Below, piece by piece: positions 711 through 6,720 of a DNA stretch of 8,372 nt; the first letter of the stretch is position 1; each line of letters opens with the position of its first letter. Under the pieces are notes generated by a model. It ran no database searches. It worked only from the letters and a program-made list of their open reading frames with translations, and was not told where the DNA came from. The position numbers and the translations under genes were made by a program. The DNA is from a virus (lineage: Duplodnaviria > Heunggongvirae > Uroviricota > Caudoviricetes): positions 1 to 8,372 of the IMG/VR virus record IMGVR_UViG_2519899564_000011; one strand, 5' to 3'.

Positions 711-742
711 AAATAAAAAGGCCTGCGATTACCAGCAGGCCT
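711..742 (-). terminator. intrinsic terminator after the helicase gene (tR2-like position)
   Basis: Inverted repeat AGGCCTGC (719-726) / GCAGGCCT (735-742) with an 8-nt loop; on the minus strand it is followed by TTTTTATTT (revcomp of 710-718). Confidence 0.5.
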
Positions 743-767: not shown

Positions 768-2144
768 TCATACGTCAGCCCCTTGTGCATATCGTCTGCC
801 ACGCGAAGCAGGTGCATTTGATGCTGTGCAAATCTGTCTGGCTTCATCCTGGTCACATGCAACAAAGTGTCCGTTACAGAACCGCTGGTAAACCGTACCA
901 AGTGGGCCAAACCGGTTTTTCGTCACAATGATTTCAGCAAATGGTGCGGCGCTACTGTTCTCGTCATATACCGCTTCCCGATAGAGCATGATGATTGAGT
1001 CTGCGTCCTGCTCAATGCTTCCTGAATCACGCAAATCTGCGTTTGTCGGGCGTTTGTTTGGTCGCTTCTCAACATCGCGCGAAAGCTGACTTAGGGAGAT
1101 AACAGGCGTTTTCAGGTCTTTCGCCATCGCCTTCAGGCTTCCTGAGATGTGAGCAATTGCGAGGTCGTTGCGGTCTGCTTTCGGCTTCTCAATCAGGCCA
1201 AGATAATCCGCCATGATGAGTGACAGGTTTGGATTTTCCTGTTTGTTCCGCTCTGCGATTGAGCGAATTTCTTCTACCGATAACCGCGAGGCATCGACTA
1301 CCCATACATCCAAATCTGCAAGCTGACTCATGCCGTTAGCAACACGCGCCCAGCCTTCGTCATCCATCGATGCAGGATTTCGCAGTACGCTAACCGACAT
1401 CCTCCCGGCGTTGGCAATGCTCCGCTCTGCAATCTGCAATGCGCTCATTTCCATCGAGAAAATCAACACTCCGCGCCGGACGTCAGAACCAGGAATAACG
1501 CGGCTTGCAACACCTTCGGCAATCTTCAGCGCCAGTTCGGTTTTCCCCATACCAGGACGAGCGGCGATAATCACCAGGTCTTCCGCGTTCATCCCTCCGG
1601 TGATGGCGTCAAGTTCTTCGATTCCGGTCTTCAGGGTATCTGACTCTTCTCCGTTCCTCAGACGCCTGTCAAGCGTGTCAGTGTAGTCAGTGATGATTTC
1701 CCCTAACCGTACAGGTTTAACCTCGTCACGGGGCTTTCTGATGGCTGAGAGACGCTTTACAAGCTCGTCCATCGCCTGACTCGATGTATCGATGGTTCCG
1801 CTCTGAATTGGTTCACGCATTTCGTCCATGATTTCCAGCACCAGACGGCGGTGATAGTTATCCGCGACCATTCCGGCATATCCCTTCAGGTTTGCGGCAC
1901 TCGGGCAGTTTTTGCTGGTCATCAGGATTGACGTGAAATGCTCCTCTCCGCACGCCTCGGCAACCATCAGCGCGTCGATTAGGTTTCTGTTTCTCGCCTG
2001 CTTACGGATAACTTCGAAGGCTTTCCGGTAGAGCGGAATTGAAAACGCTTCCGGCTCCAGCGTTGCCAGAACGTCGCTGGCGGTTGGTGTTAATCCACCA
2101 ATCAGCAAGCCACCGATAACGCTCGCTTCGATATCCTGTCTCAT
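768..2144 (-). CDS. replicative DNA helicase, DnaB family (phage P22 gene 12-like, lambda P position)
   Basis: 458-aa ORF; Walker A motif ARPGMGKT; DnaB-like N-terminal domain and RecA-fold C-terminal region; start codon overlaps the upstream O-like stop (ATGA at 2141-2144). Confidence 0.9.
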
Positions 2145-2962
2145 GCAATCCCCCTGTCTGCAAACTTCCCTTCCCGAACTCCCGTTAACGAGTCTTCCCT
2201 CAGCAGGTAATCAAAATCTGCCGTCCAGCCCGTGTCGTTGTCTCCGAAGTAAAACGGCTTGGCCTGATGCACAAACGCCCTGACATACGCTCTGAAACCG
2301 TCCACGTTTGGCGTTTTCAGTTGCGGGATGATTTTCTTCAGGCGGCGTTTTCGTTTCTCGTTGACCGCAACAGCGTGTGGAAGTCTGTCACCGACTTCGG
2401 TGTTGTAGGCGTTCAGGAAGGATTCGTAGTCGATTCGTTCTGCCTTGCGACGTTCAGGTTTAACCTGCCCATCGCCGCCCCCGTTAGGGGGTAAGGGGGT
2501 ATTTGTATTTATTGTCTTTTGTATATTGTCTTTTGTGTTTAGCTGACTTGGCTTATACCCATTAGCCGACTCGGCTAATGTTTTATTAGCTGTTTTAGCT
2601 AATGTTAAGCTGTCCTGGCTAATCCACTGAGAAACCACCTTGTTCACTCCGATTTTCACGCCATCAGCAATGAGGAATTTACGCTCAATAAGCTGGCGCT
2701 TGGCAGCGCAAACATGAGTGTGATGAATACCTGTCATGGCTGCTATCTGCGTGTTTGTGAGTCGATCCATCGGCTTATTGAATCCGTATGTCTTGCGCAT
2801 GATAGCGAGCATCACCTTCATCTGCCGGACGGTTAAATCAGCCATCAGCAGACTGTCGATAATCTCGTTAGCAACGCGCATGAAACCATCTTCGGTATCT
2901 GCCACGCGATGCTCCACGACCTCCAGTTGAGGCCTGTAATCAGCTAACTTAACGACGCCCAT
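2141..2962 (-). CDS. replication initiation protein, lambda O-like
   Basis: 273 aa; N-terminal region ([31 protein letters not shown]) resembles lambda O as I recall it (LTKRQFKVLLAILRKTYGWNKPMDRITDSQL); an iteron array and AT-rich tract sit inside the gene as in lambda ori. Confidence 0.85.
2497..2623 (-). repeat. origin of replication inside the O-like gene: four iterons plus AT-rich tract
   Basis: Four roughly 19-bp repeats with internal dyad symmetry TTAGC-N7-GCTAA at about 2538-2556, 2561-2579, 2585-2603 and 2603-2622; adjacent AT-rich tract 2497-2540 containing ATTGTCTTTTGT twice; GC hairpin CCCCCGTTAGGGGG at 2476-2489. Confidence 0.6.
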
Positions 2963-3145: not shown

Positions 3146-3424
3146 TCAGGCCTCAAAACTGTTGCCGCAGTCTTGAGGCTTTTCTTTTGTCAGCACCATG
3201 GCTACTTTCTTTGCCAGCTCCGCTAATTCCTCGTCTTCAACACCCCACTCCAGCACAGCCAGAAGCATGGCCATCTTTGGGATAAAGCTGTCTTTCCATC
3301 GCGAAATTTGCGATTCATTGATCCCTAATGCATCAGCAACCTTTCGCTGACCACGTACAGCAATTCGATTCAGGATGTTGCTTGTAATTGCATTCGCTTT
3401 CTTGCGAGTACTTGTAAGTTCCAT
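3146..3424 (-). CDS. cII: transcriptional activator CII
   Basis: From the ATG at 3424 (AAGGAAA about 9 nt upstream) the product contains GINESQISRWKDSFIPKMAMLLAVLEWGV, close to lambda CII as I recall it (GVDKSQISRWKRDWIPKFSMLLAVLEWGV). The ORF-track start at 3511 is rejected because it runs through nutR. Confidence 0.85.
   Translation of the reverse strand: MELTSTRKKANAITSNILNRIAVRGQRKVADALGINESQISRWKDSFIPKMAMLLAVLEWGVEDEELAELAKKVAMVLTKEKPQDCGNSFEA
3148..3189 (+). terminator. plus-strand intrinsic terminator antisense to the cII 3' end (oop-RNA-like)
   Basis: Stem GCCTCAA (3150-3156) / TTGAGGC (3173-3179) followed by TTTTCTTTTG (3180-3189) on the plus strand, while cII is on the minus strand ending at 3146. 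Confidence 0.5.
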
Positions 3425-3481
3425 ATGTAAGTATTTCCTTAACAAATAAGAAGTTATGCGCATCAACTTATGCGCGTTGTA

Positions 3482-3526
3482 TTCCCGCATTTCGGCGGGA
3501 ATGAGGACCATGACTGTTAAAGAGCG
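3482..3526 (-). promoter_or_regulatory. nutR (boxA plus boxB) between cro and cII
   Basis: Minus-strand CGCTCTTTAACA (revcomp of 3515-3526) matches the boxA consensus; minus-strand TCCCGCCGAAATGCGGGAA (revcomp of 3482-3500) is a 5-6 bp stem-loop and is identical to the boxB candidate at 5223-5241. Confidence 0.7.
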
Positions 3527-3533
3527 GTGTTAC

Positions 3534-3758
3534 TTATGCTGCCTGATTCGGTTTTGGAAACAGGTGTGGCAAATCGGGGCGAATTTCGTAAGCCTTGATC
3601 TGCCCTCCAGTGGCGTTAACGATGGCGGTAACTTTCTCTGGAGAGACCAACCCGCCTTTCAGCCATTTGTGTACTGCTGGCTGCGTTACACCACACTTGT
3701 CGGCAAGGCGCTTTTGGCTACCGACAATTTTCAAGGCTCGTTGAATTACTAAATTCAT
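3534..3758 (-). CDS. cro: Cro-like HTH repressor
   Basis: First gene leftward from the operator region, divergent from cI; HTH-like segment GSQKRLADKCGVTQPAVHKWLK; preferred start ATG at 3758 has AGAGGT 6 nt upstream, whereas the ORF-track start at 3779 has no SD. Confidence 0.7.
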   Translation of the reverse strand: MNLVIQRALKIVGSQKRLADKCGVTQPAVHKWLKGGLVSPEKVTAIVNATGGQIKAYEIRPDLPHLFPKPNQAA

Positions 3759-3789
3759 GAGCATACCTCTTGTGGTCATTACTTATAAC

Positions 3790-3860
3790 CAAAGATAACT
3801 CAAGTTATAAAAAATAGCAATAACCTTTGTTATTTTACTTTGGATAACCGTAGTTATAGA
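3790..3860. promoter_or_regulatory. OR operator region with divergent promoters (PR leftward, PRM rightward)
   Basis: Three 14-bp palindromes ATAAC-N4-GTTAT at 3795-3808, 3820-3833 and 3844-3857, spaced about 24-25 bp. Candidate PR on the minus strand: -35 TTGCTA (3820-3815), 17-bp spacer, -10 TATCTT (3797-3792). Confidence 0.65.
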
Positions 3861-3869
3861 TTTGTGGGT

Positions 3870-4577
3870 ATGAAAACATTCGCAGAAAGACTAAATGCAG
3901 CCATGAGCTCAGCAGGGGTATCACAATCACAGCTTGCTGACATGGTTGGAATATCTCAGCCAGCCATACAGAAGATGTCGTCCGGTAAAACAAACGGATC
4001 TCGCAAGATGGTTGAATTAGCCAATGCTTTAAAAGTGCGCCCTGAATGGCTTAGTTCTGGTATTGGTGAAATGAGGGATGGTGCACATGAAGAACCATCC
4101 AATGTCCGTGATTCATCTTTAAAAGCTGTGGTATGGGAAGACATTAAAAGAAACGATGACGAGTTTGTTGCGTTGCCTCTTCTTAACGTTTCGCTTTCAG
4201 CTGGAAGCGGTAGCTGCGAGCTAGAGGAATCATCGGAGTTCTCTTTGGTTTTCAGAAAGCACTATCTGAAAAAGATGGGAGTATCTGAAAGATCAGCCAA
4301 GCTAGTTAGGGTTGTAGGGCAAAGCATGGAACCAACGCTTCACGATGGCGATGTTGTTGGTGTTAACACGCAAGATACCACAATCAGAGATGGTAAAACC
4401 TACGCTATTTGCCAGTCTGATTTGTTACGAGTAAAAACATTAATCGCCACCCCTACATCGGTGATAATCAGATCAATAAATCGCGAAGAGTACCCGGATG
4501 AAGTAATGGATAGAGATGAATTTCATGAAACCGTAAGGATTATTGGCAGAGTATTCTGGTCGTCTCATAGTTGGTAA
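3870..4577 (+). CDS. cI: CI repressor (N-terminal HTH, C-terminal S24 LexA-like autopeptidase domain)
   Basis: HTH region QSQLADMVGISQPAIQKM; Ala-Gly candidate cleavage site in LSAGSG; Ser in GQSMEP and Lys in LRVKT fit the LexA/cI catalytic dyad. ATG at 3870 preferred over the ORF-track TTG at 3840, which lies inside an operator. Confidence 0.85.
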   Translation: MKTFAERLNAAMSSAGVSQSQLADMVGISQPAIQKMSSGKTNGSRKMVELANALKVRPEWLSSGIGEMRDGAHEEPSNVRDSSLKAVVWEDIKRNDDEFVALPLLNVSLSAGSGSCELEESSEFSLVFRKHYLKKMGVSERSAKLVRVVGQSMEPTLHDGDVVGVNTQDTTIRDGKTYAICQSDLLRVKTLIATPTSVIIRSINREEYPDEVMDRDEFHETVRIIGRVFWSSHSW

Positions 4578-4617
4578 CCGATAATCAGAAGAAGACTTAC
4601 GGAAGTGCGGAGGGATA

Positions 4618-4914
4618 ATGGAATTTCTGATAGTTTTTGTTGTTGTTTTGGTCATCATTCTTTTTGTTTTGCTAAGCATTAGTAAAAAGCTATCTCAAAT
4701 GATTGAACATAGCTCTAATCGTGCAAAAGAAGAAGAGCATATAATTGATATAAAAGAGATTCTCTCTGATATAAAAATCACATTAGATGAAATAAAATAC
4801 ACAACAGATCTAATTGAACAGTATAAAATACCAACCCCAAACGAGAGAAAAGCAATAGATCAATATCGTATTGACTTAGAAATCGACGAAATGCTAAGCA
4901 AAAGAAAAGACTAA
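4618..4914 (+). CDS. hypothetical single-pass membrane protein in the rex position (cI-linked moron)
   Basis: ATG at 4618 with GGAGGG 5 nt upstream; 98 aa with an N-terminal hydrophobic helix (LIVFVVVLVIILFVLLSI) and a charged helical C-terminal region; strongly AT-rich; about 40 nt after the cI stop and followed by a strong terminator. Confidence 0.55.
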   Translation: MEFLIVFVVVLVIILFVLLSISKKLSQMIEHSSNRAKEEEHIIDIKEILSDIKITLDEIKYTTDLIEQYKIPTPNERKAIDQYRIDLEIDEMLSKRKD

Positions 4915-4919
4915 AAACA

Positions 4920-4946
4920 CCCGGCCTCAGCGCCGGGTTTTCTTTT
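4920..4946 (+). terminator. intrinsic terminator ending the cI-moron transcript
   Basis: GC-rich stem CCCGGC (4920-4925) / GCCGGG (4932-4937) followed by TTTTCTTTTCC. Confidence 0.7.
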
Positions 4947-5067
4947 CCTGCCGTTCACCACCCAATCAACCATCCTCATCATAGACAAGCATCAAGCCAA
5001 AGGTAACACCTTCACCCCGCACGCAAGCCCTCAAACACCAATCAATCAGCAACATTTACAAAAATAA

Positions 5068-5153
5068 AATACCTTTGTTATCCATCACTTATAACCTATT
5101 CACCATAAAATATAAATTAGGTTATTGACCACACCTATAACCTAAGTTATCTT
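5068..5153 (+). promoter_or_regulatory. OL operators and PL promoter
   Basis: ATAACCTAAGTTAT (5137-5150) is a perfect match to the OR palindrome; ATAAATTAGGTTAT (5112-5125) has one mismatch; a degenerate copy sits at 5068-5081. Candidate PL: -35 TTGACC (5125-5130), 17-bp spacer, -10 TATCTT (5148-5153), the same -10 hexamer as the PR candidate. Confidence 0.6.
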
Positions 5154-5199
5154 TAAGCCATCAGCAGGACGCTGGAAGCCAAACGGAACAGATTGGCAG

Positions 5200-5241
5200 G
5201 CTCTTTAACATTGATGGGATTGTCCCGCCGAAATGCGGGAA
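5200..5241 (+). promoter_or_regulatory. nutL (boxA plus boxB)
   Basis: GCTCTTTAACA (5200-5210) matches boxA; TCCCGCCGAAATGCGGGAA (5223-5241) is a stem-loop identical to the nutR boxB; located between PL and N. Confidence 0.7.
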
Positions 5242-5347
5242 CCAAAGAGTAGTTGGCTTTGGGGTGACGTGAAGTGCAGCTGCAAGACGGCAACCGGAAG
5301 ATAAGCACGCGGCGCGTCACCGCCAAAGTCAATCATCGGAGGTCAAC

Positions 5348-5620
5348 ATGACAGTAGTCATTACATATCTGGCTGACGATAACGCCAGAAATCGCCGCAG
5401 AGCACGCAGACAGGCTCAACGTGAACAGGCAATGCAAGAACAGCGATTGGCACGAAAAATTGCGCTAAAGCTCTCTGGTTGCGTCAGAGCAGATAAAGCA
5501 GCATCACTCGGAAGCCTTCGCTGCAAGAAGGCAGATGAATGCAGTGGAAGTATTTGCCTGCCAAACGTAGCCATTTACGCGGCAGGCTACCGGAAATCAA
5601 AACAACTGACGGCGAGGTAA
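5348..5620 (+). CDS. N: antitermination protein N (P22 gp24-like)
   Basis: First gene after PL/nutL; GGAGG 5 nt upstream of the ATG; N-terminal arginine-rich motif NARNRRRARRQAQREQ; C-terminal LPNVAIYAAGYRKSKQLTAR resembles the P22 gene 24 product as I recall it. Confidence 0.8.
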   Translation: MTVVITYLADDNARNRRRARRQAQREQAMQEQRLARKIALKLSGCVRADKAASLGSLRCKKADECSGSICLPNVAIYAAGYRKSKQLTAR

Positions 5621-6511: not shown

Positions 6512-6720
6512 ATAAATTACTCTCTTACTGTAGGGGTAAGAGGATTTTACTATTTTTCTCGCTGTAGGGGTACACGAGAACCACCGAGCCTGATGTGGTT
6601 AAAAGACAGGCATACGAATAAACACTGCACTGTGTATTCATTCCAACGAGTGAATACACGGAGCAATGTCGCTCGTAACTAAACAGGAGCCGACTTGTTC
6701 TGATTATTGGAAATCTTCTT

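What the first reader, a model, noticed from the sequence alone, without database searches (positions are those of the whole stretch)
3482..5241. Matched nutL/nutR pair with rrn-like boxA and an identical 19-nt boxB
Seen in sequence: GCTCTTTAACA occurs at 5200-5210 (plus) and as the reverse complement of 3515-3525 (minus), each followed after 12-14 nt by the identical hairpin TCCCGCCGAAATGCGGGAA (5223-5241 plus; revcomp of 3482-3500 minus). Each site is correctly oriented and placed for the leftward and rightward early transcripts (after cro, and between PL and N). Established knowledge: this is the lambdoid N-antitermination architecture, and boxA here is closer to the rrn consensus than lambda's own. 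The boxB loop (CGAAAT) differs from lambda's GAAAA, which implies a specific N arginine-rich motif/boxB pairing.
Basis: partly seen in the sequence, partly recalled or inferred. Interest (0 to 1): 0.45.

Follow-up and report, generated by a model that had tools for sequence, protein, structure and literature searches.

The report
HK620-type phage nutL/nutR antitermination sites
The two matched repeats are the RNA landing sites (nutL and nutR) where a Shiga-toxin prophage's N protein loads onto RNA polymerase to override terminators; the reading is right, but identical sites are already annotated in coliphage HK620, so this is ordinary.

Summary
GCTCTTTAACA and the 19-nt hairpin TCCCGCCGAAATGCGGGAA each occur exactly twice, in opposite orientation, 12 and 14 nt apart. 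One pair lies about 40 nt downstream of PL and 107 nt upstream of N. The other lies between cro and cII.

The window is 100% identical to Stx1a-converting phage Stx1a_10051. Its N, nutL and nutR are the HK620 alleles, and GenBank AF335538 already labels these positions "nutL/nutR; putative".

Comparative data support the N/nut reading:
- The same nut pair flanks four unrelated immunity modules.
- The boxB stem covaries and has U·G pairs on the transcript strand.
- Every natural loop variant fits N-GNRA-U.
- In a sample chosen by boxA and spacer alone, boxB class predicted the N arginine-rich motif (ARM) class with no cross-pairs. HK629 N has the same body with a phi21 ARM and carries phi21 boxBs.

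The boxA matches the rrn boxA-spacer 11/11. The nutL 56-mer is in 500 of 5,426 complete E. coli genomes.

Verdict: a correct call of an already annotated, common element, so low novelty. One residual point: I found no open-access paper or solved structure for this ARM–boxB specificity class. The boxB is probably a true GNRA tetraloop on a C·U or A-U closing pair.

The parts
5200..5210 (+). nutL boxA (GCUCUUUAACA), about +40 from the PL start
   Evidence: Exact match. Identical to the rrn boxA-spacer. Annotated within nutL in HK620.
5211..5222 (+). nutL spacer (12 nt, UUGAUGGGAUUG)
   Evidence: UUGAUGG is conserved in nutL across boxB classes.
5223..5241 (+). nutL boxB hairpin: 6-bp stem 5223-5228/5235-5240, loop C-GAAA-U 5229-5234
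3515..3525 (-). nutR boxA (GCUCUUUAACA), 9 nt after the cro stop
3501..3514 (-). nutR spacer (14 nt, GUCAUGGUCCUCAU); its last two bases extend the boxB stem
3481..3502 (-). nutR boxB hairpin: 8-bp stem, loop C-GAAA-U 3494-3489; contains the 19-mer 3482-3500
5348..5620 (+). N gene (90 aa); arginine-rich motif DNARNRRRARRQAQREQ at about residues 10-26
   Evidence: Pfam PF25694, E = 1e-15. The protein is mosaic: aa 1-36 are HK620-type, 37-66 phi21-like, 66-90 P22/933W-like. ARM alignment.
5125..5153 (+). PL promoter (TTGACC-17-TATCTT), overlapped by ATAACC..GTTAT operator repeats
3792..3820 (-). PR promoter, inferred (TTGCTA-17-TATCTT, same layout as PL)
   Evidence: Read from the sequence by analogy with PL. 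It scores 8/12, below the scan threshold.
3534..3758 (-). cro-like gene upstream of nutR
   Evidence: YdaS/HTH_3/P22_Cro hits.
3146..3424 (-). cII gene downstream of nutR
   Evidence: PF05269, E = 5e-45.
5252..5333 (+). Long N-leader hairpin between nutL and the N ribosome-binding site, with a boxC-like GGGGUGACGUG in its 5' arm
   Evidence: Fold z = -3.6. The base CUUUGG.../...CCAAAG is conserved, with compensatory changes in HK629, H-19B, a lambda-type leader and others.
6720..6748 (+). Intrinsic terminator-like site in the PL operon, a candidate target of N read-through
   Evidence: 8-bp stem plus T7.
712..742 (-). Intrinsic terminator-like site just after the DnaB-like P gene in the PR operon (tR2-like position), a candidate target of N read-through
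   Evidence: 8-bp stem, 6 GC pairs, T-run.

Best explanation
These are the nutL and nutR sites of a lambdoid N-antitermination system of the HK620 specificity type. Each is transcribed early, nutL from PL and nutR from PR after cro. In the nascent RNA the rrn-identical boxA (GCUCUUUAACA) is the expected NusB-NusE(S10) binding site. The G+C-rich boxB hairpin presents an N-GNRA-U loop to the arginine-rich N-terminus of the phage's own N protein (DNARNRRRARRQAQRE). The rest of N contacts NusA and RNA polymerase. RNA looping keeps the complex on the polymerase, which then reads through downstream terminators. Candidates are 6720-6741(+) in the left operon, and the tR1 region plus 742-719(-) in the right operon. 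Shown here: the sequence anatomy, orientation, conservation, stem covariation and ARM-boxB co-inheritance. Inferred from lambda, P22 and phi21: Nus-factor binding, N binding and terminator read-through.
For: - The repeats are exact and non-random.
- Gene context and orientation are correct.
- HK620 (N, nutL and cII/nutR segments 96% identical) carries GenBank 'nutL/nutR putative' features at exactly these positions.
- 74 of 80 IMG/VR loci with this N have both sites. The same pair brackets four unrelated immunity modules (1100, 1174, 1639 and 1683 bp). The six exceptions are contig truncations (L033, L069), a cro-ninG deletion (L038; L056 also lacks nutR and has the same cI-N region), an IS insertion (L027) and phage mEp213 (L054).
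- The stem is 88% paired over 24 distinct variants. Four of 8 pairs change on both sides, and there are 11 U·G cells on the transcript strand. Slid controls fall to 33-54% for the whole structure (80% unslid).
- In a scan with the loop left free, the nut-family loops were CGAAAU (177), CGAGAU, AGAGAU and CGCAAU. AGAAAU and AGUAAU occur in Serratia and Chimaeribacter. All fit N-GNRA-U.
- Natural swaps: HK629 N matches window N residues 37-90 at 98% with a phi21 ARM, and both its nut sites keep this boxA but carry phi21 boxBs. Conversely, N proteins unrelated after about residue 27 that keep the NARNRRRA(R/K)R ARM keep this boxB.
- In nutL sites sampled by boxA and spacer only: 88 NGNRAU/NARNRRRAR pairs, plus 5 with the same ARM type that the classifier missed; 13 phi21/phi21 pairs, plus 3 called from an upstream ATG; 8 NGNRAU sites with no ORF call; no cross-pairs. 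Three further matched classes also appeared.
- The general roles of boxA, spacer, boxB and the N domains come from PMC2724277 and PMC3526286.
Against: - No experiment on this allele was found. HK620's features are labelled 'putative', and no open paper contains this boxB or ARM string.
- The loop is not the lambda/P22 pentaloop, and the ARM lacks the residue aligned to lambda Trp18. The binding geometry therefore cannot simply be copied from lambda.
- tR1 between nutR and cII is not recognisable as an intrinsic terminator, and Rho-dependent sites cannot be predicted here.
- Much of the conservation among the 80 loci reflects very recent common ancestry, because N is 97-100% identical.
- Phage mEp213 carries this N without an intact cognate nut site in the fetched region.
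Confidence: 0.9

Rival explanations
1. The repeats are only conserved 'boundary' or linker sequences. They would be stretches of shared homology flanking the immunity module that promote modular recombination among lambdoid phages, with no RNA function of their own.
For: The same pair flanks four different immunity modules. CUS-3's record calls the cI-N interval a 'boundary sequence'. N itself is mosaic, with junctions nearby.
Against: A pure recombination linker would not show compensatory stem changes, strand-specific U·G pairs or GNRA-preserving loop changes. It would also not co-vary strictly with the N-terminal 25 residues of N. The two roles are not mutually exclusive.
Confidence: 0.03
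2. The 19-mer is a DNA-level inverted repeat bound by a dimeric DNA-binding protein, i.e. an operator-like site in each early operon.
For: It is a near-perfect palindrome present once per early operon.
Against: It lies in the transcribed leader downstream of the real ATAACC..GTTAT operators. The asymmetric centre is always in the same sense relative to transcription. Variants keep pairing rather than sequence, and include U·G pairs that would be A·C on the other strand. The sense-strand loop stays GNRA, while the antisense loop shows no conserved motif.
Confidence: 0.02
3. The hairpins are terminators, attenuators or RNase processing sites that act without N.
For: They are stable G+C-rich hairpins in 5' leaders. 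A second hairpin, GCGCAUAAGUUGAUGCGC, follows nutR, and HK620's record places tR1 there.
Against: No U-run follows either boxB, and the terminator scan does not report them. The strict linkage to ARM type and to an upstream boxA at a fixed 27-31 nt is what an N-binding site predicts. In lambda the boxB region also overlaps the Rho entry sites of tR1, so a secondary role is not excluded.
Confidence: 0.03

Closest known systems
Coliphage HK620 nutL/nutR and N (GenBank AF335538; also HK630, mEpX2, HK140, JEP4, CUS-3, IME10)
   Same: The boxA, spacer and boxB of both sites are identical, and N is 97.8-100% identical in HK140, HK630 and JEP4. HK620's record marks these positions as nutL and nutR.
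   Different: The window carries a different cI/cro immunity module and sits in an Stx1a-converting phage. HK620's features are 'putative' and not tested, as far as I could find.
Phage lambda N / nutL, nutR
   Same: Same architecture: PL-nutL-N and PR-cro-nutR-cII, boxA-spacer-boxB, an N-terminal ARM, and a long N-leader hairpin. The boxB loop is purine-rich and GNRA-related.
   Different: Lambda boxA is CGCUCUUA, lacking one U. Lambda boxB is a 5-bp stem with a GAAAA/GAAGA pentaloop. Here the stem is 6-8 bp with an N-GNRA-U loop. The ARM has no residue equivalent to Trp18. The boxA-to-loop distance is 27-31 nt against about 21 nt.
Phage phi21-type N/nut (seen here in HK629)
   Same: Identical boxA GCUCUUUAACA, a near-identical nutL spacer start, and 98% identity over N residues 37-90.
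   Different: The ARM is KSRYKARRAELIAERR and the boxBs are UCUCAACCUAACCGUUGAGA and CACCUCUAACAGGGUG, with larger, non-GNRA loops.
Phage P22 gp24/nut and H-19B N/nut
   Same: P22-type sites use the same rrn-like boxA (L165). The N C-terminus ...AGYRKSKQLTAR is shared with P22, 933W and H-19B.
   Different: Their boxB loop is the GACAA pentaloop: H-19B nutR is UCGCUGACAAAGCGA. H-19B's nutR boxA position is degenerate (CGCUAUUUUCAC). HK620's record note 'similar to H19B and 21 N' refers to the protein body, not the RNA specificity.
E. coli rrn antitermination boxA
   Same: GCUCUUUAACA is 11/11 identical to the rrn boxA plus the first spacer bases.
   Different: rrn antitermination needs no N and no boxB downstream of boxA.

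Membership tests
Lambdoid N/nut processive antitermination system | Two nut sites, one in each divergent early operon: between PL and N, and after cro, before cII | tested here: met
Lambdoid N/nut processive antitermination system | boxA (consensus GCUCUU(U)A) 5' of a boxB hairpin on the transcript strand, separated by a short spacer | tested here: met
   The boxA-to-loop offset is 27-31 nt across the family.
Lambdoid N/nut processive antitermination system | An N gene with an N-terminal arginine-rich motif immediately downstream of nutL | tested here: met
   PF25694, E = 1e-15. ARM alignment.
Lambdoid N/nut processive antitermination system | boxB forms an RNA hairpin, with conserved pairing and covariation | tested here: met
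   88% paired, 4 of 8 pairs with double changes, slid controls lower.
Lambdoid N/nut processive antitermination system | boxB specificity co-varies with the N ARM | tested here: met
   No cross-pairs in the boxB-blind sample.
Lambdoid N/nut processive antitermination system | Terminators downstream that require N for read-through | tested here: inconclusive
   Intrinsic terminator-like sites at 6720-6741(+) and 742-719(-). Rho-dependent tR1/tL1 cannot be predicted, and N dependence is untested.
Lambdoid N/nut processive antitermination system | N, NusA, NusB/NusE and NusG dependence of antitermination | not testable with these tools
   Needs reporter assays, nus mutants or in vitro transcription.
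Lambda/P22-class boxB (GNRA-like pentaloop with one flipped-out base) | Five-nucleotide loop GNR(N)A or GN(N)RA on a 5-bp stem | tested here: not met
   The loop is 6 nt, N-GNRA-U, on a 6-8 bp stem.
HK620-type nut specificity | boxB core CCGC-NGNRAU-GCGG paired with an ARM (D/S)-N-A-R-N-R-R-R-A-(R/K)-R | tested here: met
   Identical to HK620's annotated sites and N.
rrn-consensus boxA | UGCUCUUUA with the extra U relative to lambda | tested here: met
   GCUCUUUAACA against ugcucuuuaaca. The first base is G in nutL and C in nutR instead of U.

The most novel reading that the evidence does not exclude
The N-GNRA-U boxB and its NARNRRRA(R/K)R ARM form a separate ARM-RNA recognition class that has not been characterised biochemically. 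The boxB would be a genuine GNRA tetraloop stacked on a C·U mismatch, or an A-U pair in Serratia, Chimaeribacter and one viral contig, rather than the lambda/P22 pentaloop with an extruded base. It would be read by an ARM without a stacking tryptophan. It is widespread in E. coli prophages: the nutL 56-mer is in 9% of complete genomes. Its ARM scaffold can switch to a phi21-like boxB with few changes (NRRRARR to NRYRARR).
Probability: 0.5. Interest if true: 0.35.

Novelty: already known. Interest (0 to 1): 0.2.

Why it matters
N/nut antitermination controls delayed-early expression in lambdoid prophages. In Stx phages it lies upstream of the replication genes and Q, and hence of toxin expression. 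Knowing which N specificity a Stx1a phage uses tells which co-resident prophages could cross-activate or exclude it. Beyond that, the call confirms textbook architecture. The only fresh angle is comparative. The ARM and boxB behave as a portable two-part module that recombines independently of the rest of N and of the immunity region. The HK620 class appears to use a plain GNRA tetraloop, which would make it a simple natural peptide-RNA pair for specificity studies or synthetic tethering.

Tried and rejected
- Rfam scans of the whole window and of the mEp213 N leader: the window gave nothing and the leader only one chance-level hit (IRES_Bip, E = 0.13, far below its gathering score). There appears to be no curated nut/boxB family.
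- PDB sequence search with N: only chance hits to RNF168.
- H-19B type, as suggested by the HK620 record note: rejected. H-19B boxB is the P22-like GACAA loop and its boxA is degenerate.
- CUS-3 seemed to have this N without nutL. This was resolved: nutL is present at L084 3147, displaced by an insert of about 200 nt in the N leader.
- Pairing of nutL boxA with the downstream AAAGAGU is not in the longer fold and is absent in HK629. It was not pursued as a feature.
- Loci lacking one site were checked for a mismatched nutR. All are truncations, deletions, an IS insertion or mEp213.
- Literature: no open paper pairs HK620 with boxB beyond a passing mention, and none contains the boxB or ARM strings. 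Clark et al. 2001 and Cocozaki et al. 2008 are not held, so prior description there cannot be excluded.
- Not run, as unlikely to change the verdict: the large protein-database searches and structure prediction of N.

Full report
**Observation.** The described sequences are present exactly as stated. GCTCTTTAACA is found only at 5200-5210(+) and 3515-3525(-), with 0.19 matches expected by chance. The 19-mer TCCCGCCGAAATGCGGGAA is found only at 5223-5241(+) and 3482-3500(-), even allowing 3 mismatches, with none in 200 shuffles. The spacers are 12 and 14 nt. As RNA, the nutL copy forms a 6-bp stem and the nutR copy an 8-bp stem (3481-3502), each with a 6-nt loop.

**Context.** The open reading frames and Pfam hits give a lambdoid early region in inverted map orientation:
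- DnaB-like P, 768-2144(-)
- O, 2141-2962(-)
- cII, 3146-3424(-)
- a Cro-like HTH, 3534-3758(-)
- an S24 repressor cI, 3870-4577(+)
- a small membrane ORF
- N, 5348-5620(+), Pfam N_peptide, E = 1e-15

PL (TTGACC-17-TATCTT, 5125-5153) lies among ATAACC..GTTAT operator repeats. nutL boxA therefore starts about 40 nt into the leftward transcript. nutR begins 9 nt after the cro stop. Both sites have the same sense relative to their own transcript.

**Identity.** The window is 100% identical to Stx1a-converting phage Stx1a_10051, LC744178. The N/nutL and cII/nutR segments are 96% identical to coliphage HK620. Its GenBank record AF335538 carries 'nutL; putative N-utilization leftward' and 'nutR' features on exactly the homologous bases. 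HK630 and mEpX2 records mark the same nutR as 'putative Nut boxA'. The nutL 56-mer occurs in 500 of 5,426 complete E. coli genomes. The element is therefore common and already annotated.

**Is it functional RNA or just shared ancestry?**
- Among 80 IMG/VR loci encoding this N (97-100% identity), 74 carry both sites. The same pair brackets four unrelated immunity modules.
- The six exceptions are two contig truncations, a cro-ninG deletion (L038; L056 likewise lacks nutR), one IS insertion in the N leader, and phage mEp213.
- Pattern scans that fixed either the loop or the stem retrieved diverged relatives.
- Over 24 distinct hairpins the 8-bp stem is 88% paired, and 4 of 8 pairs change on both sides (G-C to A-U, U-A to C-G). 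Eleven cells are U·G on the transcript strand. Sliding the partner columns drops pairing for the whole structure from 80% to 33-54%.
- With the loop left free, the nut-family loops found were CGAAAU (177), CGAGAU, AGAGAU and CGCAAU. Species-level genomes added AGAAAU (Serratia fonticola) and AGUAAU (Chimaeribacter), although that scan was constrained to NGNRAU.
- All loops read N-GNRA-U. When the first base is A it can pair with the final U.
- I infer a GNRA tetraloop closed by a C·U mismatch or an A-U pair. This is an inference from few independent substitutions, not a demonstrated structure.

**ARM-boxB pairing.**
- N is mosaic. Residues 1-36 are shared with HK620, CUS-3 and IME10, 37-66 with phi21/DE3, and 66-90 with P22 and 933W.
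- HK629 N matches window N residues 37-90 at 98% with a phi21 ARM. Both of its nut sites keep GCTCTTTAACA but carry phi21 boxBs.
- Conversely, N proteins that diverge completely after about residue 27 (76-126 aa, three C-terminal types) but keep (D/S)NARNRRRA(R/K)R sit behind the CCGC-NGNRAU-GCGG boxB.
- I then sampled nutL sites by boxA plus the first spacer bases only, blind to boxB. This gave 88 NGNRAU/NARNRRRAR pairs, plus 5 with minor ARM variants or miscalled starts. It gave 13 phi21/phi21 pairs, plus 3 called from an upstream ATG. Eight NGNRAU sites had no ORF call. There were no cross-pairs.
- Three further matched classes appeared in that sample. One is a near-relative ARM, NRYRARR, paired with a phi21-like loop.
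- This is the pattern expected if the N-terminal 25 residues read boxB.

**Mechanism.** By homology with lambda, P22 and phi21, boxA should recruit NusB-NusE, the spacer NusA, and boxB the N ARM. The N body should bind NusA and RNA polymerase to give a termination-resistant complex. This is established knowledge; the general statements are in PMC2724277 and PMC3526286. The boxA matches the rrn boxA-spacer 11/11, whereas lambda lacks one U. Candidate targets are intrinsic terminator-like sites at 6720-6741(+) and 742-719(-). The Rho-dependent tR1 and tL1 cannot be predicted. None of the binding or read-through steps is shown here.

**Comparison and novelty.**
- The site is a member of the lambdoid N/nut family, of the HK620 specificity type.
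- It is not the lambda/P22 pentaloop class. It is not the H-19B type, whose boxB is UCGCUGACAAAGCGA and whose boxA is degenerate.
- The ARM aligns with lambda's but has Ala/Met where lambda has Trp18.
- No PDB relative of this N and no Rfam family were found. No open-access paper contains this boxB or ARM. The HK620 genome paper and the Cocozaki papers could not be read.
- Verdict: a correct, well-observed call of an already annotated and common element, so interest is low. The residual novelty is that this abundant specificity class seems not to have been characterised biochemically.

Noticed in passing
window 5252-5333 (+): A long N-leader hairpin lies between nutL and the N ribosome-binding site (fold z = -3.6). 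Its base CUUUGGGGUG.../...CACCGCCAAAG is conserved and the adjacent stem covaries across HK629, H-19B, lambda-type and Serratia/Pantoea leaders. It corresponds in position to lambda's RNase III-sensitive N-leader stem (from memory) and contains the boxC-like GGGGUG.
   Followed up: partly
L054 (= phage mEp213, JQ182733) 3218-5273: This phage has two N genes in tandem. The first has a lambda ARM, sits behind lambda nutL and is matched by a lambda nutR. About 1.1 kb downstream is a second, window-type N, preceded only by a degenerate boxB (CCCUCCGAAAUGCGGG, broken stem, no boxA). The second N has no intact cognate nut site in the fetched region. It may be a relic, or it may cross-react with lambda boxB.
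   Followed up: partly
L054 4640-4895; L069; 8 further loci (d352/d438); L084 (CUS-3) 3300-3490 and 13 further loci: The N leader shows insertion polymorphisms. One is an insert of about 250 nt between boxB and the leader hairpin (boxB followed by CUGAGUUUAACC...). The other is an insert of about 200 nt between the leader hairpin and the N ribosome-binding site, containing the hairpin CCCCGUCUAAUUGGCGGGG and an A-run. An Rfam scan of the first insert's region gave only a chance-level hit. Function unknown.
   Followed up: partly
Loci L232-L258: Further matched boxB/ARM classes sit behind the same boxA and spacer: UCUCCCGCCCUUGUGGGAGA with SVSRRYLKRGELIAKRRAE; UUCCUCUCUAGCAGGAGGAA with DNAKNRYRARRAAKRE; UCUCCCGGAUAGUCUGGGAGA with ENSKTRKFKRTGEFF. 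The second shares the window-type scaffold but has Arg-to-Tyr and a phi21-like loop.
   Followed up: no
L209-L214: The rrn-like boxA GCTCTTTAACAA is followed 21 nt later by a different hairpin, CACCGC-GAUGAU-GCGGUG. In the two loci inspected (L209, L210) no N-like ORF follows, and in L209 the next ORF looks ParB-like. This may be a boxA-dependent or other antitermination leader in a different phage group.
   Followed up: no
nutR of L092, L095, L104, L187, L206, L226, L230: A nutR subfamily GCUCCCRC-CGNRAU-GYNGGAGC keeps a conserved C·(C/A/U) mismatch at the third stem pair, never C-G. It shows G-C to A-U covariation at the second pair.
   Followed up: no
window 3415-3540 (-): In the nutR-cII leader fold, boxA (UCUUUAACAG) pairs with UUGUUAAGGA, which overlaps the cII Shine-Dalgarno sequence (z = -3.4). 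A second hairpin, GCGCAUAAGUUGAUGCGC, follows boxB where HK620's record places tR1. Its significance was not tested.
   Followed up: no
window 4618-4914 (+) and 4919-4938: A 98-aa ORF with an N-terminal membrane helix and no Pfam hit lies between cI and PL, the position of rex or a moron. A bidirectional intrinsic terminator follows, in the position of HK620's tIMM.
   Followed up: no
window 6869-7729 (+): A 286-aa ORF with a very E/A/K/R-rich, probably coiled-coil, central region and no Pfam hit lies in the PL operon downstream of the 6720 terminator.
   Followed up: no
MT713136 (Aeromonas phage AP1) 253467-253522; L229 and L231 (MAGs labelled Bacillales and Segatella copri): Perfect or near-perfect copies of this coliphage nut region occur at the end of a 254-kb Aeromonas phage record and on short contigs binned into unrelated MAGs. 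Assembly or binning contamination is likely.
   Followed up: no
L027 1-760; L038 and L056 3400-3960: Defective derivatives were found. One has an IS element inserted in the N leader that removes nutL. L038 has a cro-ninG fusion deletion that removes nutR and the replication genes, and L056 likewise lacks nutR.
   Followed up: partly
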